From: an uncultured Planctomycetales bacterium
Lineage (GTDB): Bacteria; Omnitrophota; Gorgyraeia; Zapsychrales; JANLHA01
Direction: 5' to 3'
Length of the DNA stretch: 64,000 nt
NCBI GenBank assembly: GCA_964489065.1
Contig: CAZAXH010000002.1
Location: forward strand, 214,177-278,176
Positions 27,504 to 46,980 of this stretch are shown one piece after another (position 1 is the first letter of the stretch; each line of letters begins with the position of its first letter). Both the position numbers and the translations under genes were made by a program. The notes beneath the pieces were generated by a model. That model was not told the origin of the DNA and made no database searches. It saw nothing but the letters and a program-made list of their open reading frames with translations.

Positions 27504-27555
27504 ACAATAATCCAGTTTTATTTTTAATAATTATATTAATAGAAAGGCTGTCGTG

Positions 27556-29667: not shown

Positions 29668-29692
29668 CCATCCCCGGTGCTGACGCTATGGT

Positions 29693-31390: not shown

Positions 31391-31453
31391 GGATTTGTGA
31401 TAGAATAACCCATTATTACGAAAGTCTGCTTATTGTAAGGAGGGGAATTTCTA

Positions 31454-32479: not shown

Positions 32480-32529
32480 GCGCGTTTTAAACGTGAGGCG
32501 CTGTTCAATAAAGAAAGGATATTCTATCT

Positions 32530-34959
32530 GTGAACCGCTACGTGTGTATTCACGGTCATTTTTACCAGCCGCCGAGGGAGAACCCCTGGCTGGAAGAAGT
32601 TGAGATGCAGGAGTCGGCCTATCCGTTTCACGACTGGAACCAGAGGATAACGGCGGAATGTTACGCCACCAACACGGCGTCACGTATTCTTGATCAGGAT
32701 AAAAAGATTATTGATATTGTCAATAATTACGCCCGGATTAGTTTTAATTTCGGGCCCACGCTTTTGTCTTGGATGCAGCGCAAGGAGCCGGAAACTCACG
32801 CTGCGATTGTGCAGGCCGACATTGAAAGCCGCGGCCGTTTTTCCGGCCACGGGTCAGCCTTGGCGCAATGTTATAACCATATGATTATGCCTTTGGCCAA
32901 CGCCCGGGACAAATTGACTCAGGTCTTGTGGGGGATTCGGGATTTCGAATACCGGTTCGGCCGTAAACCAGAAGGCATGTGGCTGCCGGAGACGGCGGTG
33001 AATCTTGAAACCCTCGATTTGCTTGTCCAGCACGGGATCACGTTCACGATCTTGTCGCCCCGCCAGGCCAAGTGCGTGAAAGTCAAGGGGGATAAAAAAT
33101 GGACGGATGTCAGTGACAGCAAGATTAATCCCAGGAAGCCTTATGTATGCCGGTTGCCGTCAGGAAAAACCATTGTTTTGTTTTTTTATGACGGGCCGGT
33201 TTCGCACGGCATCGCGTTTGAGCGTTTGCTGGAAAGCGGGGAAACCCTGGCGAAAAGGCTGGTGGGGGCGTTTTCGCCCCACGACGAAGTTCAATTGGTT
33301 CATATCGCTACGGACGGGGAAACGTACGGCCATCATCATAACCTGGGGGACATGGCGCTGGCCTACGGGATTAATTACATCCGGGCGAACGACCTGGCGG
33401 AATTCACGAATTACGGGGAGTTCCTGGAAAAGCACCCGGCGGAAGACGAAGTTGAGATCCATGAAAATTCTTCCTGGAGCTGTATCCACGGAGTTGAACG
33501 GTGGCGGACGAATTGCGGTTGTCATTCCGGCATGCACGGCGGGTGGACGCAAGCCTGGCGTCAGCCGCTGCGCGAGGCGCTGGACTGGTTACGCGATCAG
33601 TTGACCCTTCTTTACGAAGCCGAAACCCAAGGGCTGATAGAAGACCCGTGGCAGGCGCGGAACGATTATATCCACGTTGTCCTGGACCGCTCTTTGGAAA
33701 GCGTCGAGGCCTTCTTGGGGCGCCATGCTCTTAAGGATCTGACCCGGCAGGAAAAAATTAAATTGCTTAAACTCATGGAAATCCAGCGGCACGCCATGTT
33801 GATGTATACCAGCTGCGGATGGTTTTTTGACGAGGTGTCGGGTATCGAAACGGTGCAGATTATGCAGTATGCCGCCCGGGCCATCCAGTTGGCGAAGGAC
33901 ATCAGTCCCGAGGACCTGGAACCACCCTTTCTTAATCGTCTCAAGAAAGCCCCGAGCAATATCGCCAAGTTTAAGAACGGGGCAAATGTTTATGAGCAGC
34001 TTGTCAGGCCGAGGGTCCTGGATTTGGTCCGCGTTGCCGCCCATTATGCGGTGTCTTCGTTATTTGAGGAATATTCTCAAACAACGACTATCCATAGTTA
34101 TACGGCGATCGACCAGTTGTACGACCGTCTGGAGGTCGGAAAGTTTAAGCTGGCCGTCGGGAAAGCGTTGATCCGTTCGGATATTACGTGGGAAGAACAG
34201 GTGATCACCTTCGCGGTCCTGCACCTGGGCGACCATAATATTATCGGCGGGGTCCGAGTCTTTACTGATGAAAAGATTTTTGTGAAGATGCAGCATGATA
34301 TTAAGGAGTCTTTCCGCCGGGGGGATATTACGGGAACGATTAACTTGATTGAACAAAATTTTGATGGCGGTAATTATTCCCTCTGGCATTTGTTTAAGGA
34401 TGAGCAGACCGAGATTTTGTACCAGATCCTGCATACCACTCTCGAAGAGATCGAGGTGTCCCTTCGTCAGATCAATGAACACCATTATCCGATCATTCAG
34501 GTGATCAAACAGCTCCATATCCCGCTTCCCAAGGTGCTGGCCAACACGGTGCTGGTTATGTTGAATACCGACCTGTTGCATGTCATCGGTGATGACGAAC
34601 CCGATTTCAAGAAACTGGAACAGCTGGTTTCAGAAGTGCTTGAATGGTCTTTTGAAATTGACCGCGTGGCCCTTGAATTTATGCTTCGTAAGAAAATGAA
34701 CGGCCTGATGGAAGAATTCAATCAGAATTCTTCCGAAATCAACCCTCTTCTCATGACGGAAGCGTTCTTGCGCATTTGCAGCCCGCTGCATTTAAACCTG
34801 GATTTATGGCGCGCGCAGAATATTTATTTCTCCATCGGGAAAGACCGGTATTGTAACATGAAAAACCGGGCGGAACTCGGGGATGAGAACGCGAAAAGAT
34901 GGGTGGAATATTTTGATAAACTAGGCCATTATTTGAAGGTCCGCGTTCCCCTGTCCTAG
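32530..34959 (+). CDS. glycoside hydrolase family 57 protein (GH57 alpha-glucan enzyme with DUF3536-like C-terminal region)
   Basis: IHGHFYQPPRENPW GH57 signature at N-terminus; ~809 aa; GTG start. Confidence 0.8.
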   Translation: MNRYVCIHGHFYQPPRENPWLEEVEMQESAYPFHDWNQRITAECYATNTASRILDQDKKIIDIVNNYARISFNFGPTLLSWMQRKEPETHAAIVQADIESRGRFSGHGSALAQCYNHMIMPLANARDKLTQVLWGIRDFEYRFGRKPEGMWLPETAVNLETLDLLVQHGITFTILSPRQAKCVKVKGDKKWTDVSDSKINPRKPYVCRLPSGKTIVLFFYDGPVSHGIAFERLLESGETLAKRLVGAFSPHDEVQLVHIATDGETYGHHHNLGDMALAYGINYIRANDLAEFTNYGEFLEKHPAEDEVEIHENSSWSCIHGVERWRTNCGCHSGMHGGWTQAWRQPLREALDWLRDQLTLLYEAETQGLIEDPWQARNDYIHVVLDRSLESVEAFLGRHALKDLTRQEKIKLLKLMEIQRHAMLMYTSCGWFFDEVSGIETVQIMQYAARAIQLAKDISPEDLEPPFLNRLKKAPSNIAKFKNGANVYEQLVRPRVLDLVRVAAHYAVSSLFEEYSQTTTIHSYTAIDQLYDRLEVGKFKLAVGKALIRSDITWEEQVITFAVLHLGDHNIIGGVRVFTDEKIFVKMQHDIKESFRRGDITGTINLIEQNFDGGNYSLWHLFKDEQTEILYQILHTTLEEIEVSLRQINEHHYPIIQVIKQLHIPLPKVLANTVLVMLNTDLLHVIGDDEPDFKKLEQLVSEVLEWSFEIDRVALEFMLRKKMNGLMEEFNQNSSEINPLLMTEAFLRICSPLHLNLDLWRAQNIYFSIGKDRYCNMKNRAELGDENAKRWVEYFDKLGHYLKVRVPLS

Positions 34960-34972
34960 AAAGGGAGTCTCC

Positions 34973-37273
34973 ATGATTCCAGATGAGTCTCGGCCTTGGG
35001 CCAGGCATAGCGGGCGGCTTGGGAGGCGTCCTGAGTTTTTGGCCTTGGCGCTCGGCGTGACGGCTATGATGAGCCAGTTGCTTCTTCTGCGGGAGGCGAT
35101 GGCGGTGTTTTACGGCAATGAGATGATCTATGCCGTTATCCTGGGATGCTGGCTGATGGGGGTGGGCCTGGGCAGTTTATCCTTAAGCCGCTGGCGCCGT
35201 GCGGAAAAGGGCCTCCGGCCTGTCCTGGTGGTGCTGCTCATGGGAGCCGGGGCCGGCCTCCCGTCGGTTATTATTGTCCTGCGCGTCATCCGCCATGTGT
35301 TGCATATCCCTGTCGGTGAGATTGTGAATATCCCCACGGTCATGATGATTACCGCGGGGGCGGTTATGCCGTTAGCGTTTATGTTGGGGGGCATTTATGC
35401 TGTTATTTGCCGGTTCAGGGAGGAGGGATCTTCCTTTGGCCCGGGGTCCCCACAGCCAATCAACCGGATTTATTTATTCGAAGCGGCCGGATCGGCTCTC
35501 GGAGGGCTTGTCTTCAGCTTATGGCTGGTCCGGACCTTGCCGGCTCTTACGATCGCGGCCCTTTTAGCACTGCTGCAGGCTGTTCTGGCTCTGTGTGTGC
35601 TAACCCGCCGACTTCGTTTGTTCCCTTTTTTCTTGTTGCTGGCGCTTGCGGCGGGAATCCTGACCGGAGGCGTTCAAAAGCTCGATGACTGGTCCCGCAA
35701 CCGGCAGTGGAAGGGCTTTAGGGTTTTAAGTGTTTCGGATTCTGTGTACGGGAATTTAACCCTTATCCAAAGGGGGCAGGAACACACGTTATTTGAAAAC
35801 GGCGTGTTGTCGTTTTCCACGAAGGCCGCCTACAGCAGCGAGGAAACCGTGCATTTGCCTTTGTTATCCCACCCGGCCCCGCGGGATGTCCTGCTAATCG
35901 GCAGCGCTTTGGACGGCAGTTTAACGGAAGTGTTAAAACATCCTGTCCTGACGGTGACCCATGTGGACTTGGATCCGTGGAGCCTGCGTATTGCTGAAGA
36001 GCATCTGCCGGGAGAGGTGTTGGCGCCGTTAAGGGACTCCCGTGTTCATTCGGTTTTTGGCGACGCGCGGCTTGGGATGAAAAGGAGCCGACAGACCTAT
36101 GATGTGATTTTATTAAATGTCGCTGATCCGCTGAACGCCAGGCTGAACCGTTACTATACGAGAGAGTTTTTCCAGGAAGCGGCCAGCCGCCTAAATGCGG
36201 GAGGCATTCTTTCGTTAAAGGTGTCCTCTTCTGAAAATTATCTTAACGCGGAGGCCCGCGCGTTTTTGCGTTCGATCTACTCTACTTTGCGGGCGGTGTT
36301 CCCGGATGTCCTGTCTATCCCCGGAGACACGAATATTTTTCTGGCGTCGCCTCACGGCGGCATCCTGACGAATGACCCCCGGGTCCTTTTGGCAAGGCTG
36401 AAGGAACGCAAGGTTGTCACGGAATATATCCGGGAATATTATTTGCCGTATAAAATGAGCCCGGACCGGATGCGTTATATTAAGGATATTCTTCGGACCC
36501 GGGGCGCTATCAATACAGATGCCCACCCGATCGCGTACTTCTTTGACATTGTCCTCTGGTCGTCTCATTTCCCCGGATTTTCTCCGTCTGTTTTTAATAT
36601 CCTACAGAAGATCCCGGCGTGGGCATTTCTTCTGATTCCCGTATTTTTATGGGGCGGGGGGCGCCTCGCGGCCCGGACGTCGGCCGCGGCTCCGCTGCAG
36701 CTGTCCATCTGGGTCACGGGGATATCTGAAATCGTGTTTCAGATCATTGTGATCCTGGCTTTTCAGTCGCTCTATGGCTACGCGTATTTTCAGATCGGCT
36801 TTATCATGACCGCCTTTATGCTGGGGCTGGTAGCCGGGAGCCTGGCCGCGGCGAGAAATGTGACCCGTCCGGTCCCGAGTCAAGTCAGGGTTTATCAGCG
36901 TGTCCAGGCAGCGATCTCTTTTTATCCTTTGCTTTTGCCGGCCGTTTTCTTCGTTTTTCAAAAATATTGGGTGCCGGTTCATCATGGGGGAGTTTTTGCG
37001 GTAACATTTTCTCTCCTGCCGGTTATCGCGGGGTTTTACGGCGGGATACAGTATCCGCTGGCGGTTTCCCTCGTGCAGGAGCTTTCAGGAACGTCTCCGG
37101 ATGTGGCCTCGGAAGCGGGCTTTCTTTATGCGTTGGATGTGATGGGTGCGGCCCTGGGGGCGTGGATCACGGGCGCTGTGTTAATTCCCTTGTATGGGAT
37201 TATGCCGATCGCGGTTCTCCTCGCCATGATGAATACCGCGGTGTGGCTCTTGATCAGGACCCTGCGGGTTTAA
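34973..37273 (+). CDS. spermidine-synthase-like (PABS) domain fused to polytopic membrane domains
   Basis: ~7 TM helices, then DVLLIGSALDGSLTEVLKH...VFGDARLGM...YDVILLNVADP aminopropyltransferase motifs, then additional TM helices. Confidence 0.7.
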   Translation: MIPDESRPWARHSGRLGRRPEFLALALGVTAMMSQLLLLREAMAVFYGNEMIYAVILGCWLMGVGLGSLSLSRWRRAEKGLRPVLVVLLMGAGAGLPSVIIVLRVIRHVLHIPVGEIVNIPTVMMITAGAVMPLAFMLGGIYAVICRFREEGSSFGPGSPQPINRIYLFEAAGSALGGLVFSLWLVRTLPALTIAALLALLQAVLALCVLTRRLRLFPFFLLLALAAGILTGGVQKLDDWSRNRQWKGFRVLSVSDSVYGNLTLIQRGQEHTLFENGVLSFSTKAAYSSEETVHLPLLSHPAPRDVLLIGSALDGSLTEVLKHPVLTVTHVDLDPWSLRIAEEHLPGEVLAPLRDSRVHSVFGDARLGMKRSRQTYDVILLNVADPLNARLNRYYTREFFQEAASRLNAGGILSLKVSSSENYLNAEARAFLRSIYSTLRAVFPDVLSIPGDTNIFLASPHGGILTNDPRVLLARLKERKVVTEYIREYYLPYKMSPDRMRYIKDILRTRGAINTDAHPIAYFFDIVLWSSHFPGFSPSVFNILQKIPAWAFLLIPVFLWGGGRLAARTSAAAPLQLSIWVTGISEIVFQIIVILAFQSLYGYAYFQIGFIMTAFMLGLVAGSLAAARNVTRPVPSQVRVYQRVQAAISFYPLLLPAVFFVFQKYWVPVHHGGVFAVTFSLLPVIAGFYGGIQYPLAVSLVQELSGTSPDVASEAGFLYALDVMGAALGAWITGAVLIPLYGIMPIAVLLAMMNTAVWLLIRTLRV

Positions 37274-37501
37274 GGCGGTTTTTATCCCTTCGGGACTCCT
37301 TTCAAAGTGTCATCCGGCCAGGTCCCGGCCTGTGCGGTAATGCCGGGCTTCTTTCAGGCGAGGCGGGGTGGTCCTCGTCGCGGCGGACACGTTCCGTAGG
37401 CCGCGGCCGGAACATAATCCCATAAGTAGGGCTCCCAGCCATTTTAAAAATGTTTTTCGGTCCATGGTTTTGGGCTCCATCGTATTCCTTTCGCGCGGTT
37501 T

Positions 37502-38479
37502 TTATTGCCAGATTCCCGGGATGGGGGTTTGGCAGTATTCGCATTTTCCGTCCACAATATGGTTGCTTAAAATGGTATATCCGATCCGTTTGATCAGCGG
37601 CTTATTGTCGTGGGGACAATGGGTGTTGTTGCCCGGATGCCGCGGTACATTCCCGACGTAAGCGTATTGGAGTCCTTCTTCCTTGGCGATATCCCAGGCC
37701 ATTGTTAAGGTCTCGACCGGGGTGGGGGGGAGGTTCGTGAGTTTGTGCATGGGCACAAACCGGGAGAAATGGACGGGAGTGTCTTTCCCGGGGTTCCGGG
37801 CCACCCACCGGCACAGGTCGCGGATATCTTTGGGTTTATCATTCCAGGTCGGCACGATGAGATTCGTCAATTCCACGAACACGTTGTTCTGCTTCATGAT
37901 CATAATGGCATCCAGAACCGGCTGTAGGGTCGCTTCGGACATGTCGCGGTAAAATTCCTCGGTGATGCCTTTTAAATCCACGTTGGCAGCGTCAATATGG
38001 GGGCATAATTCCAGGAGCGGTTTTTTTTCAATATATCCGGCGGTGACCATGATATTCAGCAGGCGCTGCGTGTGCGCGATCCGGGAGGTGTCGAGGCAAT
38101 ATTCATAAAAAATAATGGGATCGGAATATGTGTAAGAAATGCTTTGGCAGCGGGCACGCAACGCCTCGCGGACAACGCTTTGAGGAGGAAGGTCATAATT
38201 TTCTGTTTTTTCCGGAGGCACCTGGGAGATGGCCCAGTTTTGACAGTATTTGCAATGCAGGTTGCAGCCGGCCGTGGCGATGGAGAACGAGGTGGACGCC
38301 GGCAGGACATGGAATAACGGTTTCTTTTCGATGGGGTCGACATGCACAGCGCAGGGATTCCCGTAGACAAGGGAATAAAGTTTCCCTTGAACATTGACTC
38401 TGACCCGGCAGTTACCCCGTTGGCCTTCTTTTAACCGGCAGTGCCTGGGGCATAATTCGCATTCCACAAAATGGGACAT
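37502..38479 (-). CDS. radical SAM enzyme, AmmeMemoRadiSam-system type (PflA-like activase fold)
   Basis: CNLHCKYCQNW CxxxCxxCQN cluster motif typical of the AmmeMemoRadiSam radical SAM family; 325 aa. Confidence 0.75.
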   Translation of the reverse strand: MSHFVECELCPRHCRLKEGQRGNCRVRVNVQGKLYSLVYGNPCAVHVDPIEKKPLFHVLPASTSFSIATAGCNLHCKYCQNWAISQVPPEKTENYDLPPQSVVREALRARCQSISYTYSDPIIFYEYCLDTSRIAHTQRLLNIMVTAGYIEKKPLLELCPHIDAANVDLKGITEEFYRDMSEATLQPVLDAIMIMKQNNVFVELTNLIVPTWNDKPKDIRDLCRWVARNPGKDTPVHFSRFVPMHKLTNLPPTPVETLTMAWDIAKEEGLQYAYVGNVPRHPGNNTHCPHDNKPLIKRIGYTILSNHIVDGKCEYCQTPIPGIWQ

Positions 38480-38492
38480 AATCGCCTTTTGG

Positions 38493-38717
38493 TTATTCGA
38501 CAGTTTTCCAGTACAGGGCCTTGTGCAGTTTGAGACCCGATGTTTCCATGTCTTGCAGGCTGGGGTCTTCTGTCTTCTCCAGGACCGGCGCCGCGCTTGG
38601 GGGCATTCCGGCCGAGGGGAGGTTTTTCAGGTTGTTAGAAACAATCCCCAGAAGCAGGGCGCTGCTTAAGACATAAATGACTAAAAACAGGATATTATTT
38701 ATTTTTTTTCCATTCAT
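38493..38717 (-). CDS. small membrane protein (single TM)
   Basis: 74 aa, hydrophobic N-terminal helix; 14 nt upstream of the radical SAM gene; 23-nt overlap with the upstream gene. Confidence 0.35.
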   Translation of the reverse strand: MNGKKINNILFLVIYVLSSALLLGIVSNNLKNLPSAGMPPSAAPVLEKTEDPSLQDMETSGLKLHKALYWKTVE

Positions 38718-40059
38718 AAGAAAAACACAGGGCTCCCTGCGCGCAGTGCCGGACGCATTTCATGCATAGAATGCATTCCGGGGTTTTTACTATGACTTTC
38801 CCGCCGGGGAGAATGTGAATCGCCTGCGTCGGGCACTCGGCCTGACACTGCTGGCAGCCGTTGCAGGATCCCCGGACCCTGACTTTAAACAGGCTGGCCT
38901 GCGATAAAAGCCCGTTTATGGCGCCGACAGGACAAAAATATTTGCACCAGAACCGATAATGGAATATCCCGGCGGTCAGCATGATTCCTAAAAGGAGCCA
39001 GGCTGACCAGGATCCGTGCCGGGTAAAAAGCGTGACAAAAACTTCGACATTGGCGATGTCCGGGTTGGAGGCATAAAGGCCGGCGCTTAGGATAATAATC
39101 AGCAGAGCATATTTAAATAAGCGGGCCGCGGAATCCACCCTGGGCGAAGGGAGAAGCGCTGGACGGTTGAATCGTTGCCCGGCGGCGTATAGCAATTCCT
39201 GGACAGCGGCAAAGGGGCATATACTGCCGCAATATATCATCCCGCCGGCCACGCAAGAGAGAAAGGTCCCGGTCATGAGAGCGTACCATAAAGGGGAGGC
39301 GGAAAAAGACGGCAGGTTTAGGATGCCGATATTGGCGACATGAGCCGCCGCTACCATGGTTTTTTTTATTAAGCCCAGGTAAAGCAGTCCTCCGGTCAAG
39401 GCCAGCCAGCGTAAAGAGGCTTTACGAAAAAACACCCCGCTTCCCGCCAGCACAAACAGTAACGCGGGAACGAGAAGCTGTTCCCATGGGAAAAAGTCCG
39501 GCTGGTGTTGGCTTGGCGCCTGGTTGAGCCGGAAGATTTCCTGATTCATGAGGGCACGGCTTTTTTCTATGGAACGGATGATGGCAGAGCTGGTGATGGT
39601 GGCCTGACTGATCCCGTCGATTGTTTGGCCAAGCACCAGAGGGGCTGCGGAGCCCCGGTTTATGAATTGTTTCAGAAATCCGTCGAGGTTCTTGATGTAG
39701 GCGGCGGTTTCCTGATGCGAGAGGAGCTGTACCCCGATTATGGTTCCCTGAACGTCAATCCCGATTAACAGATCTATCGGTCCGGCGTATCCTTGAATGT
39801 CCGGAGCGAGCGCGGTTGTGCGAAAAGCGTATCCGATTAGTTTCTTTTCCCCGGGATCCCGGGTGGCGGCGTAGACTTTAAGGTATTGGGGGAAGGAGGT
39901 GACCGGCGTGATGTCCTCTGCTCCCGGGAAAAGGCCGCGGGCATACTGCATCTCCTGAGAAGAAGCCGGCAGCGACGGTTGGGCGCGGGAGGGAAGGTGG
40001 GCCGCCATTCCGGCAGCCAGAATCACCAAGACTATGACGCTGAAAAATTTATATCGCAT
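38695..40059 (-). CDS. NosR/NapH-like membrane polyferredoxin with periplasmic FMN-binding domain
   Basis: Signal/TM, FMN_bind-like segment (GISQATITSSAIIRSIE), two CX3CP motifs (CGSICPFAAV, CKYFCPVGAI), two C-terminal 4Fe-4S motifs (CNGCQQCQAECP, CILCMKCVRHC). Confidence 0.7.
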   Translation of the reverse strand: MRYKFFSVIVLVILAAGMAAHLPSRAQPSLPASSQEMQYARGLFPGAEDITPVTSFPQYLKVYAATRDPGEKKLIGYAFRTTALAPDIQGYAGPIDLLIGIDVQGTIIGVQLLSHQETAAYIKNLDGFLKQFINRGSAAPLVLGQTIDGISQATITSSAIIRSIEKSRALMNQEIFRLNQAPSQHQPDFFPWEQLLVPALLFVLAGSGVFFRKASLRWLALTGGLLYLGLIKKTMVAAAHVANIGILNLPSFSASPLWYALMTGTFLSCVAGGMIYCGSICPFAAVQELLYAAGQRFNRPALLPSPRVDSAARLFKYALLIIILSAGLYASNPDIANVEVFVTLFTRHGSWSAWLLLGIMLTAGIFHYRFWCKYFCPVGAINGLLSQASLFKVRVRGSCNGCQQCQAECPTQAIHILPGGKVIVKTPECILCMKCVRHCAQGALCFSYEWKKNK

Positions 40060-40340
40060 ATTCAAACCAATTTTACTGCCAAAAACAAGCAAGTTCAAGG
40101 GAATCATCACCTCAGAGGAAGCATCGCCTTAAAGGGCCGGGGCCGGGCTGATCCTTCCCGGGCAGGAGAGGGCTTTGTGCCGGCACCAACACAACGCAGA
40201 AATTACTGGTCTAATAATGGGAAATGTATTAATATAACTTCAATTTACAGTGACAATCCCTTGAGAATCCTCAAGGATTGGATTCTGGCTGTTTCCTAAT
40301 TTGGCTCAATACGGTTGTGTTTATTGAAGGAGATATAATT

Positions 40341-41666
40341 ATGTCGTATGTCCGTCATCTTATCCAGTTTCTTAAGGTTGATATTTGGCGCATCCGGATG
40401 CACAAATTACCTCGGACCCAGTCTTTCTGGCTGAAACAGCTCAGGATCATGTTGTTGGCTTTCCGGGGTTTTGACGAGGACAAATGCCAGCTGCGGGCGT
40501 CGGCGTTGACATATTATTCCCTTTTATCCATCGTCCCTTTGGTGGCCATGGCGTTTGGCATTGCCAAAGGGTTTGGCATAGAAAAAATACTGGAGAAACA
40601 GCTTTATGAAAAGCTTGCCGGCCAGGAAGAGGTGGTGGGACGCATTATCACTTTCTCCCAGACCCTTCTGGAAACAACCAAAGGCGGGGTGATTGCGGGT
40701 GTCGGTGTGGCGATTTTGTTCTGGACGGTTATAAAGGTGCTGGGAAATATCGAGAGCTCGTTTAATGATATCTGGGGAATCCGTAAGAGCCGTCCGTGGG
40801 GCCGGAAGTTCAGCGATTATCTTTCGATCATGCTGATTTGCCCGCTTTTGCTGATTATATCGAGCAGTGTCACTGTGCTCGTGGCCAGTCAGGTGAAACT
40901 GGTGGTGGACAAGATTTCTTTTCTGGGCGTGTTGAGCCCGGTTATCTTTATGACCCTCAATCTGTTGCCTTATTGTGTAATATGGGTCTTGTTTACGTAC
41001 ATCTATATTTTTATGCCTAATACGTCGGTTTCTTTCAAGTCCGGGCTGTTTGGCGGAATGATTGGCGGCACGATTTATCAGATCGTTCAGTTGATTTACA
41101 TTACTTTCCAGGTCGGGGTGGCTAAATATGGGGCGATTTACGGCAGTTTCGCTGCGTTGCCTTTATTCCTGGTGTGGCTGCAAACGAGCTGGATTATTGT
41201 CTTATTCGGGGCCGAAATTTCTTTCGCCGAACAGAATGTGGAAACCTATGAGTTGGAACCCGATTGCCTCAAGGCCAGCCATACGTATAAACGGTTGCTG
41301 GCTTTGAGAATCGTGCAGTTATCCGTTAAGCGTTTTTGCCTTTCTCAAATACCGTATACGGCCGCGGATATAGTGAAGGAGATAGAAATCCCCATTCGCC
41401 TTTTGCGGCAGATCCTCTTTGACCTGACGGAGGCGGGCATTCTGGTGGAAGTCAGGCTTGAGGACGGCCGCCAGATAGGGTATCAGCCGGCTTTTGATAT
41501 TGAAACCTTGAGCATTTCGAAAGTGAATGAACTCCTGGATGACAAAGGCATTTCTGAGATGCCGATCATTCGTTCGGAGGAATTGGCCCGTATTGAACAG
41601 TGTCTTCGGTCTTTCCGGGTTCTGGCCGAACAGTCTTCAGAGAATATATTATTAAAAAATTTATAA
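40341..41666 (+). CDS. YihY/BrkB family inner-membrane protein
   Basis: LTYYSLLSIVPLVAM signature, 6 TM helices, long C-terminal extension. Confidence 0.75.
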   Translation: MSYVRHLIQFLKVDIWRIRMHKLPRTQSFWLKQLRIMLLAFRGFDEDKCQLRASALTYYSLLSIVPLVAMAFGIAKGFGIEKILEKQLYEKLAGQEEVVGRIITFSQTLLETTKGGVIAGVGVAILFWTVIKVLGNIESSFNDIWGIRKSRPWGRKFSDYLSIMLICPLLLIISSSVTVLVASQVKLVVDKISFLGVLSPVIFMTLNLLPYCVIWVLFTYIYIFMPNTSVSFKSGLFGGMIGGTIYQIVQLIYITFQVGVAKYGAIYGSFAALPLFLVWLQTSWIIVLFGAEISFAEQNVETYELEPDCLKASHTYKRLLALRIVQLSVKRFCLSQIPYTAADIVKEIEIPIRLLRQILFDLTEAGILVEVRLEDGRQIGYQPAFDIETLSISKVNELLDDKGISEMPIIRSEELARIEQCLRSFRVLAEQSSENILLKNL

Positions 41667-41843: not shown

Positions 41844-43259
41844 ATGACTGGAAAAAGCAAGGGGTCAGAAGATTCAAAAGGCGGGTCTCATCCGAGAGTC
41901 GTTCAGCTTCTGCAGGCGGTCAGGGCGATGAGAGAAGGTGATTTTTCCCGGATGACAGCCCAGGAAGGGGAGGCGGATGCCCTGGCTGAATTAAGCCGGG
42001 AGTTGAAGTGCCTGGGGGAGACTTTGCAATCCCGGACAGAAGAGATCCAGACCTTGCTTAAGATGACGGAGCGTATTAACTCCGGGTTTCTTTTGAAGGA
42101 CACCCTGCGTTATATTTATGATGAGTTTAAGAAAGTGATCCCTTATGACCGGATCGGGGTGTCTTTTATCGAAGAGGATGGTGAGCAGGTCCGCTGTTAC
42201 TGGGGCCGGGCGGATGCCATAAAAACTTTGTATTTAAAGGAAGGCTACACCGCCCCGCTTGAAGGGAGCAGTCTGGAGCGGATTATCCTCTCCGGCCGGC
42301 CGCGCATCCTGAATGACCTGGAACAGTATGCCCGGGAACATCCGGATTCGGAATCGACCCAACTTATTCTCAAAGAAGGCGTTCGTTCCAGCCTGACCTG
42401 CCCCTTGATGGCGGTCGGGAAGCCGATTGGTTTTATATTTTTTTCGAGTTGTCAGCCCTGCGCGTACAGCGACCAGCATATTGAAATTTTTCAACAGTTG
42501 GCGGGACAGTTGGCCCTTATTACGGAAAAAAGCCGCATGTATCAGCAGGTTCTGGAATTGAATGAAACCAAAAATAGATTTTTAGGAATAGCGGCGCATG
42601 ACCTGAGGACCCCGTTAACCGTTATAAAAGGGAACCTGGATTTGCTGCGGGAGCGTATTTTGGGAGACACCACGGCCGCGCAAGACCAGGCCTTTCAGCA
42701 AATGAATGCTTCCTGCAAGACCATGCTGACTCTTATTAATGATTTTTTAAGTGTTTCCGTGATCGAAGCGGGGAAATTGGAATTGCGGTTGAAGGATATG
42801 GACCCTGCCGTGTTTATGTCTGATCTGTGTAATTTTAACCGGTTTCTGGCCCAAGCGAAGAACATTAACCTTTGCCTGGATATGGAAAAGCATCTCCCGC
42901 ATTTTCAGATAGACCCGGAGCGGTTGGCGCAGGCGGTCAATAATTTGATAAGCAACGCGGTCAAGTTTTCCCCTTCAGGAGGGACGATTGTTTTACGCGT
43001 GAAATTATTAGGGAAGCGTATCCAAATCAGCGTGACCGACCAGGGCCCGGGGATTCCGGCCTCGGAAACGTCCCGGTTATTTCACTTTTTTGAAAAGACG
43101 TCCGTGCGGCCCCAGCACGGGGAGTCAAGCACTGGTTTGGGCCTGGCCATTGTCCGGAAACTTGTTGAAGCCCATGGCGGGGAGGTTTCGGTCGTTAGCC
43201 AAGAGGGGAAAGGGGCCACGTTTTCGATCCTGCTGCCGTTGGCTCCGGGCTTTGGCTAA
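41844..43259 (+). CDS. cytoplasmic GAF-domain sensor histidine kinase
   Basis: GAF domain, H-box IAAHDLRTPLTVI, HATPase_c (GLGLAIVRKLVEAHGG). Confidence 0.85.
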   Translation: MTGKSKGSEDSKGGSHPRVVQLLQAVRAMREGDFSRMTAQEGEADALAELSRELKCLGETLQSRTEEIQTLLKMTERINSGFLLKDTLRYIYDEFKKVIPYDRIGVSFIEEDGEQVRCYWGRADAIKTLYLKEGYTAPLEGSSLERIILSGRPRILNDLEQYAREHPDSESTQLILKEGVRSSLTCPLMAVGKPIGFIFFSSCQPCAYSDQHIEIFQQLAGQLALITEKSRMYQQVLELNETKNRFLGIAAHDLRTPLTVIKGNLDLLRERILGDTTAAQDQAFQQMNASCKTMLTLINDFLSVSVIEAGKLELRLKDMDPAVFMSDLCNFNRFLAQAKNINLCLDMEKHLPHFQIDPERLAQAVNNLISNAVKFSPSGGTIVLRVKLLGKRIQISVTDQGPGIPASETSRLFHFFEKTSVRPQHGESSTGLGLAIVRKLVEAHGGEVSVVSQEGKGATFSILLPLAPGFG

Positions 43260-43377
43260 AAAAAAACTTGTTTTTCCCACGAGTTGATATTAACATTGAC
43301 AGGACAAATCTTCTTTATTTTTTTACAGATTATATCTATAACGGATGTATTAATATTATTACAAGGAAAGGTTTCCA

Positions 43378-46300
43378 ATGAAAAGAGTTCAAGTCACGAT
43401 TGATGGTAATGAGGCGGCCGCCTATTCGGCTTTTAAAGTGAGCGAGGTTATAGCGATTTATCCGATTACTCCATCTTCACCCATGGGGGAAAGTTCGGAT
43501 GAATGGGCCGCGGCTGGAAAAACGAATATCTGGGGGACGGTTCCTCTTGTCCAGGAGATGCAAAGTGAGGGGGGGGCGGCCGGGGCTGTTCATGGGGCTT
43601 TGCAGGCCGGGTCTTTGACTACCACGTTTACCGCCTCCCAAGGGTTGTTATTGATGATCCCCAATATGTATAAGATAGCCGGAGAGCTTACTTCGACGGT
43701 TTTTCATGTTGCCGCGCGTTCCCTGGCGTGTCAGGCCCTTTCTATTTTCGGCGACCATTCCGATGTTATGGCGGCCCGGGCAACCGGCTTTGCCATGCTG
43801 GCCTCCGGGGGTGTTCAGGAAGTCATGGACTTCGCCCTGATCGCCCAGGCCGCCACGCTGGAGTCGAGGGTGCCGTTCCTGCATTTTTTTGACGGGTTCC
43901 GGACCTCGCATGAAGTCGCCAAGATCGACCGGCTGACCGATGAAGAAATCAGGGCCCTCATCAGCGATGAACTGGTTTTAGCGCATCGCCAGCGCGCGCT
44001 TTCCCCGGACCGCCCGTCAATGCGGGGGACCGCGCAGAACCCGGATGTTTATTTCCAGGGAAGGGAAGGGGTGAACCTTTTTTATAATCATTGTCCGGCT
44101 ATTGTCGAGAAAGCGATGAAAAATTTTTCCAAAACGACCGGGCGGACGTACAACCTGTTTGATTATTACGGGGCTCCGGACGCTGAACACGTTGTTGTTT
44201 TGATGGGGTCCGGCGCGGAAGCCGCCCAGGTTACGGTGGAAAAGCTGGTAGCGAAGGGACAGAAGGTCGGGGTGGTTAAAGTCCGGTTATACCGCCCGTT
44301 TTCTATGGACCATTTTCTGGCTGTTTTGCCGAAGACCGTTAAGGTGATTACCGCATTGGACCGGACCAAAGAACCCGGATCCATCGGGGAACCGTTATAT
44401 CAGGATGTCGTCAATACGGTTTTTGAGCGGGGATTGACGCGGTTTGCGTCTTATCCGAAGGTTTTGGGCGGCCGCTACGGGTTGTCATCCAAAGACTTCA
44501 CGCCGGCCATGGTCAAGGCGGTTTTGGATAACGGATTTAAAACGGAACCTAAAAATCATTTCACAGTCGGCATCACGGATGACGTGACCCGAACCAGTTT
44601 GGACTGCGATGAATCTTTTACCATAGAAGACGAGGCCGGGGTGTGCGCGATATTTTACGGGTTGGGCGCTGACGGGACCGTGGGGGCCAACAAAAGCACG
44701 ATCAAGATCATCGGGGGCAACACGCCGAATTATGCCCAGGGATATTTTGTTTATGACTCCAAAAAGTCTGGGTCCATGACCGTCAGCCATTTGCGGTTTG
44801 GCCCTAATCCCATCCGCGCCACTTACCTGGTTTCTCAGGCGAAATTCGTGGGCTGCCACCAGTCTGTTTTTTTGGAGAGGTACAATGTCCTGGAAAAAAT
44901 AGCGCCCCGGGGTGTGTTCCTTTTAAATTCGGTCTTTGGCCCGGATGAGGTCTGGGAGCATCTCCCGAGAGTGATTCAGGAACAGATTATCGCCAAGAAT
45001 ATCCAGTTTTATGTGATTGACGCTTATCAGGTCGCCAAGGATACCGGCATGGGGTTGCGTATTAATACCATTATGCAGACATGCTTTTTTGCCATCTCCG
45101 GCGTGCTTCCCAAAGAGGAAGCGATTGAAAAGATTAAGGAATCCATCAAGAAGGCTTATGGCTCCAAGGGGGAGGAGGTCGTGCGGATGAATTTTAACGC
45201 GGTTGACCAGACCCTCGCGCACTTGCATCGCGTGAAGGTGCCTTCCCAGGCGACCAGCACCGTGGATTTTCTGCCCCCCGTGTCCGGGGCAGCCCCGGCG
45301 TTCGTGAAGAAAGTCACGGCGGAAATTATTGCCGGGCGGGGAGACCAGCTCCCAGTGAGCGCCATGCCGGTTGACGGGACGTTCCCGACGGGAACCACCC
45401 AGTGGGAAAAACGGAACATCGCCCTCGAGATCCCCGTCTGGGACCCTTCGGTGTGTATTCAGTGCGGGAAATGCGTGCTTGTTTGCCCGCACGCTGTCAT
45501 CCGGAGTAAGATTTACGACTCCGCGATATCCGGAAAAGCGCCGGCGACGTTCAAATCTGCGGACGCCAAGGATAAGGATTTTCCCGGCATGAAATTTTCT
45601 ATCCAGGTTTCTCCGGAGGACTGTACCGGATGCGGCGTGTGCGTGGAAACGTGTCCGGCTAAAAACAAGCAGGACCCTAAACTTAAAGCGATCAACATGC
45701 ACTCTCAACCGCCTTTAAGGGACGAAGAGCGGAAAAACTGGGACTATTTTCTGGATATCCCTGACTTGGACCGCACGCGCGTCAAACAAAATTCTGTCCG
45801 CGGCGTTCAGAGCCTCAGTCCTTTGTTTGAGTTTTCCGGGGCCTGCGGCGGCTGCGGGGAGACGCCTTATGTCAAGTTGCTCTCCCAGTTGTTTGGCGAT
45901 CGCGCCATTATCGCCAATGCGACCGGGTGTTCTTCTATTTACGGCGGGAATTTGCCGACCACGCCGTGGACTTTTAATAAGGAAGGTCGGGGCCCGGCCT
46001 GGTCTAACTCCTTGTTCGAGGATAACGCGGAGTTTGGGTTAGGGTTCCGTCTCAGCATCGACAAGCATAATGGGTTTGCCCGTGAATTGCTGAAAAAACT
46101 GGAGTCCCAGGTGGGGACGGAGCTTGTCAAAGAAATTCTGGAAGCGGATCAGTCGGAAGAGGCCGGGCTTGCGGCCCAGCGCAAGCGGGTGGAAGCATTG
46201 AAAAAGAAGCTTAGCGCTGTCAAATCGGTGGAAGCGAAACATCTCTTAAGCCTTGCGGATTATTTAGTGAAGAAAAGCGTCTGGATTCTGGGCGGCGACG

Positions 46301-46947: not shown

Positions 46948-46980
46948 ATTGTTGTTATTTTGAACACAGGGGAGGGGCCG

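What the first reader, a model, noticed from the sequence alone, without database searches (positions are those of the whole stretch)
37502..40059. Orphan AmmeMemoRadiSam-type radical SAM enzyme in an operon with a NosR/NapH-like FMN/FeS membrane protein
Three minus-strand genes are tightly packed, with a 14-nt gap and a 23-nt overlap:
- a membrane polyferredoxin with an FMN-binding domain, two CX3CP motifs and two 4Fe-4S motifs;
- a 74-aa single-TM protein;
- a radical SAM enzyme with the CxxxCxxCQN motif of the AmmeMemoRadiSam family.

Established: that radical SAM family is normally encoded with AMMECR1 and Memo homologues, and neither is nearby here. Inference: this is an electron-input module (a NosR/NapH-type quinol-to-FeS conduit) feeding a radical-SAM maturase. 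It could be a previously undescribed membrane-coupled radical-SAM system, possibly modifying the small TM protein or a periplasmic substrate.
Basis: partly seen in the sequence, partly recalled or inferred. Interest (0 to 1): 0.55.

Follow-up and report, generated by a model that had tools for sequence, protein, structure and literature searches.

The report
Membrane-wired, probably exported radical SAM module
This is a conserved five-gene module of an uncultured Omnitrophota bacterium in which a radical SAM enzyme is tied to a flavin/iron-sulfur membrane "wire", two tiny membrane-targeting proteins and a membrane spermidine-synthase-like protein; the evidence suggests the enzyme works on the outer face of the cell membrane, which is not known for this enzyme class.

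Summary
The three genes are real and tightly packed. The radical SAM (rSAM) enzyme scores 359.9 bits on TIGR04337 (cutoff 220). The membrane protein has FMN_bind, Fer4_5 and two 4Fe-4S motifs. The same cluster recurs in all 12 close Omnitrophota relatives examined.

- a 56-aa Tat-like small gene at 37310-37480(-);
- a convergent 766-aa membrane spermidine-synthase-like gene (SPE) at 34973-37273(+), the commonest neighbour of this rSAM subfamily (48 of 84 loci).

Neither small protein looks like a RiPP precursor. Each carries the family's own N-terminal "(K/E)A-x-[YF]-[YW]" segment, which this rSAM core lacks, behind a membrane anchor or Tat-like signal.

In other phyla the rSAM carries a Tat or Sec signal in cis. 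It is also found fused to FMN_bind, to NapH-like proteins or to DsbD-like proteins. Memo-AMMECR1 partners there carry signal or lipoprotein peptides.

No Memo or AMMECR1 lies in the 64 kb, and sister lineages carry a Memo-AMMECR1 fusion at exactly this position.

Best reading: this is a Memo/AMMECR1-less variant of an extracytoplasmic AmmeMemoRadiSam system, reduced across the membrane by the NapH-like flavoprotein. The substrate is unknown. The linkage between the parts is well supported. The location outside the cytoplasm is inferred.

The parts
38695..40059 (-). NapH/NosR-like membrane flavo-iron-sulfur protein. Order of features: N-terminal signal-anchor, FMN_bind domain (flavinylation-like motif DGISQATITSS at 39586-39618), about five transmembrane helices with two CX3CP motifs (39211-39231, 38929-38946), C-terminal 2x[4Fe-4S] ferredoxin domain (38830-38865, 38743-38775). 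The ORF is open up to the GTG at 40110.
   Evidence: Pfam FMN_bind 49.4, Fer4_5 45, Fer4_9 30.1 bits. Only partial matches to NosR (104 vs cutoff 1000) and NapH (79.7 vs 213). Hydropathy of the family alignment. Motif coordinates. Present upstream of the rSAM in all 12 loci with rSAM identity of 61% or more.
38493..38717 (-). 74-aa anchor protein. It has an N-terminal transmembrane helix (38640-38702), an acidic linker and the C-terminal tail GLKLHKALYWKTVE (38496-38537). The tail corresponds to the N-terminal segment that the rSAM core lacks.
   Evidence: Joining the tail to the rSAM extends the TIGR04337 match from model position 12 to position 3, and the score rises from 359.9 to 363.7 bits. 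Homologous tails (GLxxHEAKYW) end just before the rSAM core in L003, L007, L036, L016, L047 and L059. The same tail is fused to the C-terminus of the NapH-like protein in L005/L006, of an FMN_bind-only protein in L011/L012, and of SPE-NapH fusions in L034/L048.
37502..38479 (-). Radical SAM enzyme, core-only form of the AmmeMemoRadiSam family. Features: N-terminal four-Cys motif (38408-38461), CX3CX2C-QNW (38234-38266), C-terminal Cys motif (37532-37618). It has no signal peptide and no AxYY segment.
   Evidence: TIGR04337 359.9 bits (cutoff 220), matched from model position 12. Pfam Radical_SAM 61.3 bits. Closest solved relative by sequence and by fold is PFL-activating enzyme.
37310..37480 (-). 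56-aa small protein. It has a Tat-like signal (DRKTFLKWLGALLMGLCSG, 37406-37462; R-K instead of R-R), a basic linker and the C-terminal tail KEARHYRTGRDLAG (37313-37354).
   Evidence: A conserved ORF lies directly after every signal-less rSAM core examined: 26 of 28 loci, with one at a contig edge and one exception. No genuine example follows any of the 54 rSAMs that carry a signal in cis. Orthologues have S/T-R-R-x-F-L-K. TIGR01409 passes for L006 (19.6) and L007 (16.7, cutoff 16.7) but not for the window copy. It is called as a gene in other assemblies.
34973..37273 (+). Convergent 766-aa membrane protein. It has 7 predicted transmembrane helices, a spermidine-synthase-like domain (about 35837-36319) and 7 more transmembrane helices. 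The soluble domain is predicted to face outward.
   Evidence: Pfam Spermine_synth 61.8 bits. PRK03612 156 bits vs cutoff 472. It is the commonest neighbour of this rSAM subfamily (48 of 84 loci, 46 within 2.1 kb) and is present in all close relatives. It is fused to FMN_bind+Fer4_5 and the tail in L034, L048 and L073. Topology comes from family hydropathy, the positive-inside rule and the fusions.

Best explanation
The locus encodes a reduced, Memo/AMMECR1-less variant of a widespread membrane-associated form of the AmmeMemoRadiSam system. That form most likely works on the outer face of the cytoplasmic membrane.

Proposed mechanism, step by step:
1. The NapH-like protein takes electrons from a cytoplasmic donor at its C-terminal 2x[4Fe-4S] domain.
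2. It passes them through the CX3CP-bound centres across the membrane to an FMN on its outward-facing FMN_bind domain.
3. That flavin reduces the [4Fe-4S] cluster of the rSAM. It would play the part that flavodoxin plays for the related pyruvate formate-lyase activase.
4. The rSAM gene here encodes only the catalytic core. The family's conserved N-terminal segment is encoded separately, twice.
5. One copy sits at the end of the 74-aa membrane anchor, which would dock the enzyme beside the FMN domain.
6. The other copy sits at the end of the 56-aa Tat-like signal protein. That protein would carry the folded, cluster-loaded core through the Tat pathway as a hitchhiker.
7. The enzyme acts together with the outward-facing SAM-fold domain of the convergent spermidine-synthase-like membrane protein, on a still unknown envelope or membrane substrate.

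Shown:
- Conservation of the five genes.
- Family assignments.
- Complementary distribution of signals in cis versus in trans.
- Natural fusions linking rSAM, FMN_bind/NapH-like and SPE.

Inferred:
- Direction of electron flow.
- Export of the window's rSAM.
- Strand complementation.
- The chemistry.
For: **Conservation**
- The order NapH-like, about 70 aa, rSAM, about 55 aa, convergent SPE is found in 12 relatives at 61-89% rSAM identity.

**Physical linkage shown by fusions**
- FMN_bind+Fer4_5+rSAM in P0364 and P0368.
- DsbD_2+FMN_bind+Fer4_5+rSAM in P0376.
- FMN_bind+rSAM with no hydrophobic segment in between in P0377 and P0382.
- SPE+FMN_bind+Fer4_5+TM+'HEAxYY' tail in L034, L048 and L073.

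**Compartment**
- 36-39 of 84 rSAM homologues carry R-R-x-F-L-K signals and 15 carry Sec-like signals or anchors.
- At least 31 of 150 family representatives carry such signals.
- Memo-AMMECR1 partners begin with signal or lipobox-like peptides.
- P0361 and P0363 place a signal plus a beta-propeller or CBM-like domain before the rSAM.
- In P0364 and P0368, six transmembrane helices separate the FMN_bind domain from the rSAM, and the cytoplasmic ferredoxin domain is missing.
- The tail follows a cytoplasmic ferredoxin domain plus one transmembrane helix in L005/L006. It follows FMN_bind directly in L011/L012. Both arrangements place it outside.
- FMN_bind on NapH-like proteins is described as extracytosolic (PMC8238504).

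**The segment is part of the enzyme**
- TIGR04337 model position 1 is the A of 'EARFY' in a signal-bearing homologue.
- AlphaFold gives pLDDT 95 and beta-strands for that segment, against below 50 for the signal.
- 146 of 150 representatives carry it in cis.

**Signal in trans**
- The downstream Tat-type small ORF is present after 26 of 28 core-only rSAMs and after none of 54 with a signal in cis.
- Tat hitchhiking is an established mechanism (bioRxiv 10.1101/2023.11.02.564894).
Against: - The window's own rSAM has no signal. Its small protein has R-K rather than R-R and does not reach the TIGR01409 threshold.
- Joining the 56-aa tail to the core does not extend the TIGR04337 match, because the spacing is about 5 residues longer.
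- No complex could be modelled, so strand complementation is untested.
- No source of SAM outside the cytoplasm is known.
- Sec-type signals on some homologues would require Fe-S cluster insertion outside the cell, for which no pathway is known.
- Topologies rest on hydropathy, the positive-inside rule and fusion logic, not on a dedicated predictor or experiment.
- The flavinylation motif reads S-Q-A-T instead of S-G-A-T.
- No ApbE or TatC was found among the 16 window genes scanned.
- The substrate and reaction are unknown.
- Burroughs et al. 2019 (JBC), which extended the gene contexts of Memo systems, could not be read. Part of this may already be described there.
Confidence: 0.55

Rival explanations
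1. Cytoplasmic version. The rSAM stays in the cytoplasm and is reduced by the cytoplasmic 2x[4Fe-4S] domain of the NapH-like protein. That protein collects electrons from the membrane or periplasm. The small proteins only tether the enzyme to the membrane.
For: - The window rSAM lacks any signal peptide.
- Ferredoxin-type domains are usual rSAM reductants, and SAM is available in the cytoplasm (established knowledge).
- The window's Tat motif is degenerate (R-K) and fails TIGR01409.
- The NapH-like protein of this clade keeps its ferredoxin domain.
Against: - Fusions P0364 and P0368 lack the ferredoxin domain and place the rSAM after a sixth transmembrane helix, on the FMN side.
- P0377 and P0382 join FMN_bind and rSAM with no membrane segment between them.
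- The tails carrying the missing segment are placed outside by two independent fusion types.
- Most homologues carry export signals.
- A quinol is far too weak a reductant for an rSAM cluster (established knowledge).
Confidence: 0.28
2. RiPP-like maturation. One or both small proteins are precursor peptides whose conserved aromatic C-terminal motif is modified by the rSAM before or after export.
For: - Small ORFs flank an rSAM.
- They carry conserved C-terminal motifs (KALYW; EARHY...LAG).
- The family is nearest to enzymes that act on protein substrates, such as PFL-activating enzyme.
Against: - The motif is the first 11 positions of the family model TIGR04337.
- It is present in cis in 146 of 150 representatives, including short forms without signals.
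- AlphaFold predicts it as ordered beta-strands of the domain, with pLDDT 95.
- Small ORFs occur only where the rSAM lacks the segment.
- No RiPP recognition element, protease or transporter is in the cluster.
Confidence: 0.1
3. Nothing functional beyond synteny. The 56-aa ORF is a decaying remnant of a duplicated signal-bearing rSAM gene, and the neighbourhood with the NapH-like and SPE genes is inherited gene order within one phylum.
For: - A tandem duplication followed by deletion would produce exactly the order core then signal+segment.
- Some loci do have two rSAM paralogues (L026, L063).
- The window's R-K motif could be decay.
Against: - Intact small ORFs with conserved ends are found in Omnitrophota, Thermodesulfovibrionales, Planctomycetota-like, Aegiribacteria and other MAGs.
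- They show a near-perfect complementary distribution with cis signals.
- Fusions among rSAM, FMN_bind/NapH-like and SPE occur in unrelated lineages.
Confidence: 0.04

Closest known systems
AmmeMemoRadiSam system (NCBIfam TIGR04337 rSAM, TIGR04335 AMMECR1-type protein A, TIGR04336 Memo-type protein B); function uncharacterised
   Same: The rSAM passes TIGR04337 (359.9 vs 220). It has the CX3CX2CQNW motif. Sister loci carry a protein matching TIGR04336 (242 bits) plus TIGR04335 (194 bits) next to it.
   Different: No A or B protein lies at the locus or in the 64 kb. The rSAM lacks the family's N-terminal segment, which is encoded on two flanking small genes. Partners here are a NapH-like flavoprotein and a membrane SPE-like protein. 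Signals indicate a location outside the cytoplasm.
NapH-like flavinylated transmembrane electron-transfer systems (NosR, PceC; Meheust et al. 2021, PMC8238504)
   Same: It has an N-terminal outward FMN_bind domain, Fer4_5/CX3CP membrane helices and a cytoplasmic dicluster domain. These systems are used modularly with extracytosolic redox enzymes.
   Different: The partner is a radical SAM enzyme rather than a respiratory reductase or oxidase. That paper's main text does not contain the terms radical SAM, Memo, AMMECR1 or spermidine. Scores are far below the NosR and NapH cutoffs. The motif is S-Q-A-T rather than S-G-A-T.
Pyruvate formate-lyase activating enzyme with flavodoxin as reductant
   Same: It is the closest solved fold and sequence (3cb8: Foldseek E 5.5e-12; phmmer 3.7e-05). 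An FMN protein as the one-electron donor is established for PFL-AE (my own knowledge).
   Different: Glycyl-radical activase models are not met (TIGR02494 35.8 vs 174). There are extra N- and C-terminal Cys motifs. The flavin is on a membrane protein. No glycyl-radical enzyme is nearby.
Tat 'hitchhiker' export (e.g. hydrogenase small/large subunits; Rodrigue et al. 1999, as cited in bioRxiv 10.1101/2023.11.02.564894) and small Tat-signal-only proteins (NCBIfam TIGR02811, 'formate dehydrogenase region TAT target')
   Same: A signal-less Fe-S protein is encoded next to a partner that carries the twin-arginine signal.
   Different: The signal-bearing partner here is only about 45-60 aa. It would bind by donating a segment of the enzyme's own fold. 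This is untested. TIGR02811 is not met (16.5 vs 48.45 for L007's ORF).
Membrane-fused polyamine aminopropyltransferases (NCBIfam PRK03612; Pfam PF01564)
   Same: It has a spermidine-synthase fold domain embedded in a polytopic membrane protein.
   Different: It scores below the equivalog cutoff (156 vs 472). The domain is predicted to face outward between 7+7 transmembrane helices. It is genomically and physically (by fusion) tied to the rSAM and the NapH-like protein.

Membership tests
AmmeMemoRadiSam radical SAM enzyme (TIGR04337) | Whole-protein score above the curated cutoff (220 bits) | tested here: met
   359.9 bits, E 1.2e-107
AmmeMemoRadiSam radical SAM enzyme (TIGR04337) | Radical SAM CX3CX2C cluster motif followed by QNW | tested here: met
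   CNLHCKYCQNW at residues 72-82, invariant in alignment A1
AmmeMemoRadiSam radical SAM enzyme (TIGR04337) | Family N-terminal segment (model positions 1-11, '(K/R)EAx[YF][YW]..L') within the same polypeptide | tested here: not met
   The match starts at model position 12. The segment is found on the flanking 74-aa and 56-aa proteins. 146 of 150 representatives have it in cis.
AmmeMemoRadiSam three-gene system | Co-located AMMECR1-type (TIGR04335) and Memo-type (TIGR04336) genes | tested here: not met
   tblastn of 29 Memo-AMMECR1 proteins against the window gave a best E of 0.018. They are absent from the locus in 11 of 12 close relatives. No shared large-contig fingerprint exists between the homologue lists.
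AmmeMemoRadiSam three-gene system | AMMECR1/Memo genes elsewhere in the same genome | not testable with these tools
   Only 64 kb of this genome is available, and whole assemblies of relatives cannot be scanned.
NapH-like flavinylated electron-transfer system (Meheust et al. 2021) | Polytopic membrane protein with PF12801 (Fer4_5) and an N-terminal FMN_bind (PF04205) domain behind a signal or anchor | tested here: met
   Fer4_5 45 bits, FMN_bind 49.4 bits, N-terminal hydrophobic segment. Definition from PMC8238504.
NapH-like flavinylated electron-transfer system (Meheust et al. 2021) | Flavinylation motif ([S/T]GA[S/T]-type) and an ApbE flavin transferase | tested here: inconclusive
   The motif reads DGISQATITSS, with Q in place of G. 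Relatives have G, Q, H or R at that position. No ApbE was found among the 16 window genes scanned. The rest of the genome is unknown.
NosR (NF046105) / NapH (TIGR02163, PRK09477) | Score above the curated cutoff | tested here: not met
   NosR 104 vs 1000; NapH 79.7 vs 213 and 76.2 vs 234
Twin-arginine signal (TIGR01409) | S/T-R-R-x-F-L-K motif plus hydrophobic region, scoring at least 16.7 bits | tested here: not met
   The window 56-aa protein has D-R-K-T-F-L-K and no TIGR01409 hit. Orthologues pass or nearly pass: L006 19.6, L007 16.7, L003 16.1.
Glycyl-radical enzyme activase (TIGR02494, TIGR02493) | Score above the curated cutoff | tested here: not met
   35.8 vs 174.35; 45.2 vs 231.75
Polyamine aminopropyltransferase (PRK03612 / speE) | Score above the equivalog cutoff | tested here: not met
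   156 vs 472; speE 72.5 vs 249.55. Only the Pfam domain PF01564 passes (61.8 vs 22.9).
RiPP precursor plus rSAM maturase | Small peptide with a core motif distinct from the enzyme, plus recognition, processing or export genes | tested here: not met
   The motif equals the enzyme family's own N-terminal segment. No RRE, protease or ABC exporter is in the conserved cluster.

The most novel reading that the evidence does not exclude
This may be the first recognisable case of radical SAM chemistry organised outside the cytoplasm. The features of that reading are:
- A Tat-exported rSAM core whose export signal and first structural segment are supplied in trans by a roughly 50-aa protein.
- Docking by a second small anchor next to a covalently flavinylated NapH-like conduit that delivers low-potential electrons across the membrane.
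- Cooperation with an outward-facing SAM-fold domain of a 14-helix membrane protein.

This would imply either SAM export or SAM carried along as a bound, regenerated cofactor. It would also give the enigmatic Memo/AMMECR1/rSAM system an envelope-directed function.
Probability: 0.45. Interest if true: 0.85.

Novelty: new variant of a known kind. Interest (0 to 1): 0.72.

Why it matters
- **Location of rSAM chemistry.** Radical SAM enzymes are treated as strictly cytoplasmic, because they need SAM, Fe-S assembly and low-potential reductants. A widespread anaerobe system with export signals and a dedicated transmembrane flavin/FeS reductant would challenge that view. It also raises a concrete question about where the SAM comes from.
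- **Function of Memo and AMMECR1.** The AmmeMemoRadiSam system has homologues in humans (MEMO1, AMMECR1) and still has no known biochemical function. The obligatory partners found here (the SPE-like membrane protein and the FMN conduit) and the natural Memo/AMMECR1-less variant narrow down what each part does. They give directly testable constructs.
- **Protein targeting.** A signal-plus-strand supplied in trans would be a new kind of Tat hitchhiking.
- **Partners of NapH-like systems.** The result adds a non-respiratory client to the NapH-like flavinylated systems, most of whose partners are unknown.

Tried and rejected
- **Complex modelling.** I tried to model the rSAM core with the 56-aa tail as one chain, using the in-frame read-through region (TAA plus 7 codons). 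The alignment tool refuses translations containing a stop, and chimeric sequences are not accepted for structure prediction. No complex model was obtained.
- **Genome-wide Memo/AMMECR1 search.** This was not possible. As a proxy I compared 'longest contig' lengths between the rSAM hits and the Memo-AMMECR1 hits. The only two coincidences (4291 and 4877 bp) turned out to be window-type loci without Memo/AMMECR1. The result is suggestive, not conclusive, because only the top 120 hits are listed.
- **Literature.** 'AmmeMemoRadiSam' gives six incidental mentions. No paper in the searchable library (open-access PMC and bioRxiv) held the exact phrase 'periplasmic radical SAM', and a looser search ('radical SAM', 'Tat signal', 'periplasm') turned up none on an exported rSAM. 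Burroughs et al. 2019 (JBC; PMC6664185), the key comparative study of Memo contexts, is not held.
- **Promoter/terminator and RNA scans.** Promoter and terminator scans of 37000-40500 gave counts no higher than shuffles. Rfam found nothing in 36500-41000.
- **ApbE/TatC.** A scan of ten further window genes found only housekeeping functions.
- **RiPP-precursor reading of the small proteins.** Considered and rejected.
- **In-frame arrangement of the rSAM stop and the 56-aa ORF.** This is not conserved in relatives, where the small ORF often overlaps the rSAM end in another frame. Programmed read-through was therefore dropped.


Full report
**1. The observation**

The ORF list shows three minus-strand ORFs.
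- 38695..40110: 471 aa from a GTG.
- 38493..38717: 74 aa.
- 37502..38479: 325 aa.

The first two overlap by 23 nt. The gap before the rSAM gene is 13 nt, not 14.

Pfam finds FMN_bind (49.4 bits), Fer4_5 (45) and dicluster ferredoxin models in the large protein, and Radical_SAM (61.3) in the 325-aa protein. NCBIfam places the latter in TIGR04337, 'AmmeMemoRadiSam system radical SAM enzyme', at 359.9 bits against a cutoff of 220. The large protein only partially matches NosR (104 vs 1000) and NapH (79.7 vs 213). The two CX3CP motifs, the two ferredoxin motifs and CNLHCKYCQNW can be read directly.

**2. Organism and conservation**

The best 120 of the roughly 8000 homologues scored are 64-89% identical, and nearly all of those that carry a source name are from Candidatus Omnitrophota MAGs. 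The window itself is found only as a Logan contig.

Twelve relatives with 61-89% rSAM identity were examined: L002, L003, L005, L006, L007, L008, L010, L011, L086, L087, L088 and L089. All twelve have a NapH-like (in L011 an FMN_bind-only) gene next to the rSAM and an SPE-like gene in the locus; most show the full order below, though in L005/L006 the ~70-aa gene is fused to the NapH-like gene and in L087 the SPE-like gene is not adjacent:
- FMN_bind/Fer4_5 protein;
- a gene of about 70 aa;
- the rSAM;
- a gene of about 55 aa;
- a convergent Spermine_synth membrane protein of about 720-780 aa.

This holds while the outer flanks differ.
- the 56-aa ORF at 37310..37480(-);
- the convergent 766-aa gene at 34973..37273(+), which scores 61.8 bits on Pfam Spermine_synth but below the equivalog cutoffs.

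**3. Wider neighbourhood**

A scan of GTDB representative genomes returned 80 loci at 50-70% identity from many phyla. Adding the loci fetched individually and dropping duplicate contigs gives the 84 loci counted here.

| Neighbour | Loci out of 84 | Note |
|---|---|---|
| SPE-like membrane protein | 48 | 46 within 2.1 kb |
| Fused Memo-AMMECR1 protein, about 500 aa | 33 | TIGR04336 242 bits + TIGR04335 194 bits |
| NapH-like protein | 21 | 16 within 1 kb |

Omnitrophota L011, L012 and L036 have the order rSAM, small ORF, Memo-AMMECR1, SPE. The Memo-AMMECR1 gene therefore sits exactly where the window clade has nothing.

tblastn with 29 Memo-AMMECR1 proteins finds nothing in the 64 kb (best E 0.018). 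'Orphan' is thus true for the locus and for the clade. Whether such genes exist elsewhere in the genome could not be tested. A contig-length fingerprint comparison of the two homologue lists gave no true co-occurrence.

**4. The small proteins are split-off pieces of the enzyme**

Most rSAM homologues in other phyla are about 50-70 aa longer at the N-terminus. The extension is a twin-arginine signal (S/T-R-R-x-F-L-K) or a Sec-like signal or anchor. It is followed by '(K/R)EAx[YF][YW]xxL....VxC'.

Evidence that this segment belongs to the enzyme:
- In such a homologue, TIGR04337 model position 1 falls on the A of 'EARFY' (residues 42-372 match model 1-333).
- The window rSAM starts only at model position 12.
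- AlphaFold2 of a fused homologue (P0241, 49-row alignment, mean pLDDT 85) gives pLDDT below 50 for the signal. It gives about 95 and short beta-strands (39-41, 45-47, 53-55) for the segment.
- Among 150 representatives of the family at 50% clustering, 146 carry the segment in cis and only 4 are core-only.

The window's 74-aa protein ends in GLKLHKALYWKTVE. Joining that tail to the rSAM extends the model match to position 3 and raises the score from 359.9 to 363.7 bits. Equivalent tails (GLxxHEAKYW) end just upstream of the core in several other loci. The same tail also occurs in three fused forms:
- at the C-terminus of the NapH-like protein (L005, L006);
- at the C-terminus of a signal+FMN_bind-only protein (L011, L012);
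- at the C-terminus of SPE-NapH fusions (L034, L048).

The 56-aa protein has a Tat-like signal and ends in KEARHYRTGRDLAG. Its homologues end in ...EAxYY..LAG-stop in Omnitrophota and in ...KEAMFWRKLD-stop in Thermodesulfovibrionales. The latter ends exactly where the core begins in the fused form.

The distribution is complementary (with corrections by eye):
- None of the 54 rSAMs with a signal in cis has a genuine downstream small ORF.
- 26 of 28 core-only rSAMs have one. One of the other two lies at a contig edge, and L038 is the only exception.

This rules out a RiPP-precursor reading and a decaying-remnant reading.

**5. Linkage to the flavin/FeS protein and to SPE**

The exhaustive representative search revealed natural fusions.

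| Architecture | Examples |
|---|---|
| FMN_bind + Fer4_5 + rSAM | P0364, P0368 |
| DsbD_2 + FMN_bind + Fer4_5 + rSAM | P0376 |
| FMN_bind + rSAM, no hydrophobic segment between | P0377, P0382 |
| DsbD_2 + rSAM | P0365, P0367 |
| rSAM with Memo and AMMECR1, in various orders | P0372, P0397, P0406, P0420, P0444, P0375, P0445 |
| Signal + beta-propeller or CBM-like domain + rSAM | P0361, P0363 |

L034, L048 and L073 encode single proteins of 1280-1348 aa. These combine SPE, FMN_bind, Fer4_5, one more transmembrane helix and the 'HEAxYY' tail. The rSAM, the FMN/FeS protein and SPE are therefore parts of one machine.

**6. Which side of the membrane**

Several lines point to the outer face.
- FMN_bind on NapH-like proteins is extracytosolic, and the CX3CP and ferredoxin parts are membrane or cytosolic (PMC8238504). 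The window protein fits this. It has an anchor, FMN_bind, about five transmembrane helices with K/R-rich inner loops, and then the ferredoxin domain.
- In P0364 and P0368 I count six hydrophobic helices between FMN_bind and the rSAM, and the ferredoxin domain is absent. This puts the rSAM on the FMN side.
- In P0377 and P0382 no helix separates the two domains.
- The tail follows 'ferredoxin domain + one helix' in L005/L006 and follows FMN_bind directly in L011/L012. Both arrangements put it outside.
- Memo-AMMECR1 partners begin with signal or lipobox-like peptides.
- For SPE, family-averaged hydropathy and K/R counts give N-in, 7 helices, domain out, 7 helices, C-in. The fusions agree: the SPE C-terminus is followed by a K/R-rich loop, one helix and then FMN_bind.

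These are inferences from simple rules, not from a dedicated predictor.

**7. Mechanism proposed**

Electrons enter the cytoplasmic dicluster domain. They cross the membrane via the CX3CP centres to the outward FMN, which reduces the rSAM cluster. The nearest solved relative, PFL-activating enzyme, is physiologically reduced by the FMN protein flavodoxin (my own knowledge).

The core-only rSAM would fold and receive its clusters in the cytoplasm. It would bind the tail of the 56-aa Tat-type protein and be exported as a hitchhiker, a mechanism established for hydrogenases and formate dehydrogenases. It would then be held next to the FMN domain by the 74-aa anchor tail.

The reaction and substrate are unknown. 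The constant partner is the outward SAM-fold domain of SPE, so an envelope or membrane target is the best guess.

Weak points:
- The window's signal is R-K and fails TIGR01409, although orthologues pass.
- The 56-aa tail is about 5 residues out of register.
- The flavinylation motif is S-Q-A-T.
- No ApbE or TatC was seen in the 16 window genes scanned.
- No extracytoplasmic SAM supply is known.
- Sec-type signals on some homologues are hard to reconcile with Fe-S insertion.

**8. Comparison with what is known, and novelty**

By the NCBI model the enzyme is an AmmeMemoRadiSam rSAM. It fails two features of the canonical system: the N-terminal segment in cis, and adjacent A and B proteins.

The membrane protein fits the operational definition of 'NapH-like flavinylated systems', whose partners are mostly unknown. 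That paper's main text does not contain radical SAM, Memo, AMMECR1 or spermidine.

No paper in the searchable library held the exact phrase 'periplasmic radical SAM', and none of the few papers combining 'radical SAM', 'Tat signal' and 'periplasm' concerned an exported rSAM. The one study most likely to have touched these contexts (Burroughs et al. 2019, cited in PMC7159879) could not be read.

I therefore rate this a new variant of a known kind. The most novel reading still allowed is that it is the first organised extracytoplasmic radical SAM system, with its export signal supplied in trans.

**9. Verdict**

| Claim | My confidence |
|---|---|
| The five genes form one functional module | about 0.9 |
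| The small proteins are split N-terminal modules | about 0.85 |
| The NapH-like flavoprotein is the rSAM's reductant | about 0.75 |
| The window's rSAM works outside the cytoplasm | about 0.55 |

Noticed in passing
window 1-64000: Strong strand bias. 52 of 59 greedy-called ORFs lie on the + strand, and GC skew is positive in every 2-kb bin, so cumulative skew rises monotonically. The rSAM cluster is one of very few minus-strand islands.
   Followed up: no
window 37481-37504: The rSAM stop codon (TAA) and the start of the 56-aa ORF are in the same reading frame, separated by only 7 codons. In relatives the small ORF often overlaps the rSAM end in another frame, so this looks coincidental.
   Followed up: partly
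L030:2890-3555, also L020, L035, L055, L064, L066; proteins P0365, P0367, P0376: A DsbD_2/CcdA-like membrane protein of about 220 aa (thiol-electron transfer across the membrane) follows the signal-bearing rSAM in six loci. It is fused to the rSAM in three representatives. It may be a second, alternative transmembrane reductant route.
   Followed up: partly
L068, L071, L074 (5287-6270), L078: A DUF362 protein with a Tat signal sits directly upstream of the Tat-signal rSAM in four loci from different phyla.
   Followed up: no
L026:9099-10193(-), L063:3512-4561: A second, divergent Tat-signal rSAM paralogue lies next to the AmmeMemoRadiSam-type rSAM. Its N-terminus reads ...AKLEREGKLAxRxxxAYAxFExCxLCPRxCGVNR.
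   Followed up: no
L002:7860-8000 and 8975-9170: Similar low-complexity sequence flanks the rSAM gene on both sides in this relative, with translations such as ...PNKSKLPNPNGCKGVGF / ...IPKSQIQTDVRGFGL. It may be a small repeat element inserted in the intergenic spacers.
   Followed up: no
L005:5353-10645: In the 'Elusimicrobia'-labelled MAG the module is followed by a second Spermine_synth membrane protein (618 aa), an AdoMet decarboxylase (PF02675) and an EamA-family transporter. This hints at a link to decarboxylated-SAM/polyamine metabolism or transport.
   Followed up: no
proteins P0406, P0420, P0436, P0439, P0444, P0453, P0456, P0457, P0477, P0479, P0482, P0500: There is a sizeable group of proteins of about 1000-1150 aa. 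The three I scanned are single-chain rSAM+AMMECR1+Memo fusions without N-terminal signals. Their taxonomic origin was not determined.
   Followed up: partly
window 27553-34959 and 41844-47970: The flanks are ordinary central and regulatory genes, with the same order in relatives L088 and L089. They include ADP-forming acetyl-CoA synthetase-like protein, GAF-GGDEF, pyruvate kinase barrel, GH57 glycosidase, BrkB/YihY, GAF histidine kinase, a 1189-aa pyruvate:ferredoxin oxidoreductase and a DHO_dh-like protein.
   Followed up: partly
window 49741-51684: A histidine kinase with a C-terminal PilZ domain (PAS-HisKA-HATPase-PilZ). It lies next to a double-receiver response regulator and type II secretion/pilus genes (T2SSF at 53802-54860).
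   Followed up: no
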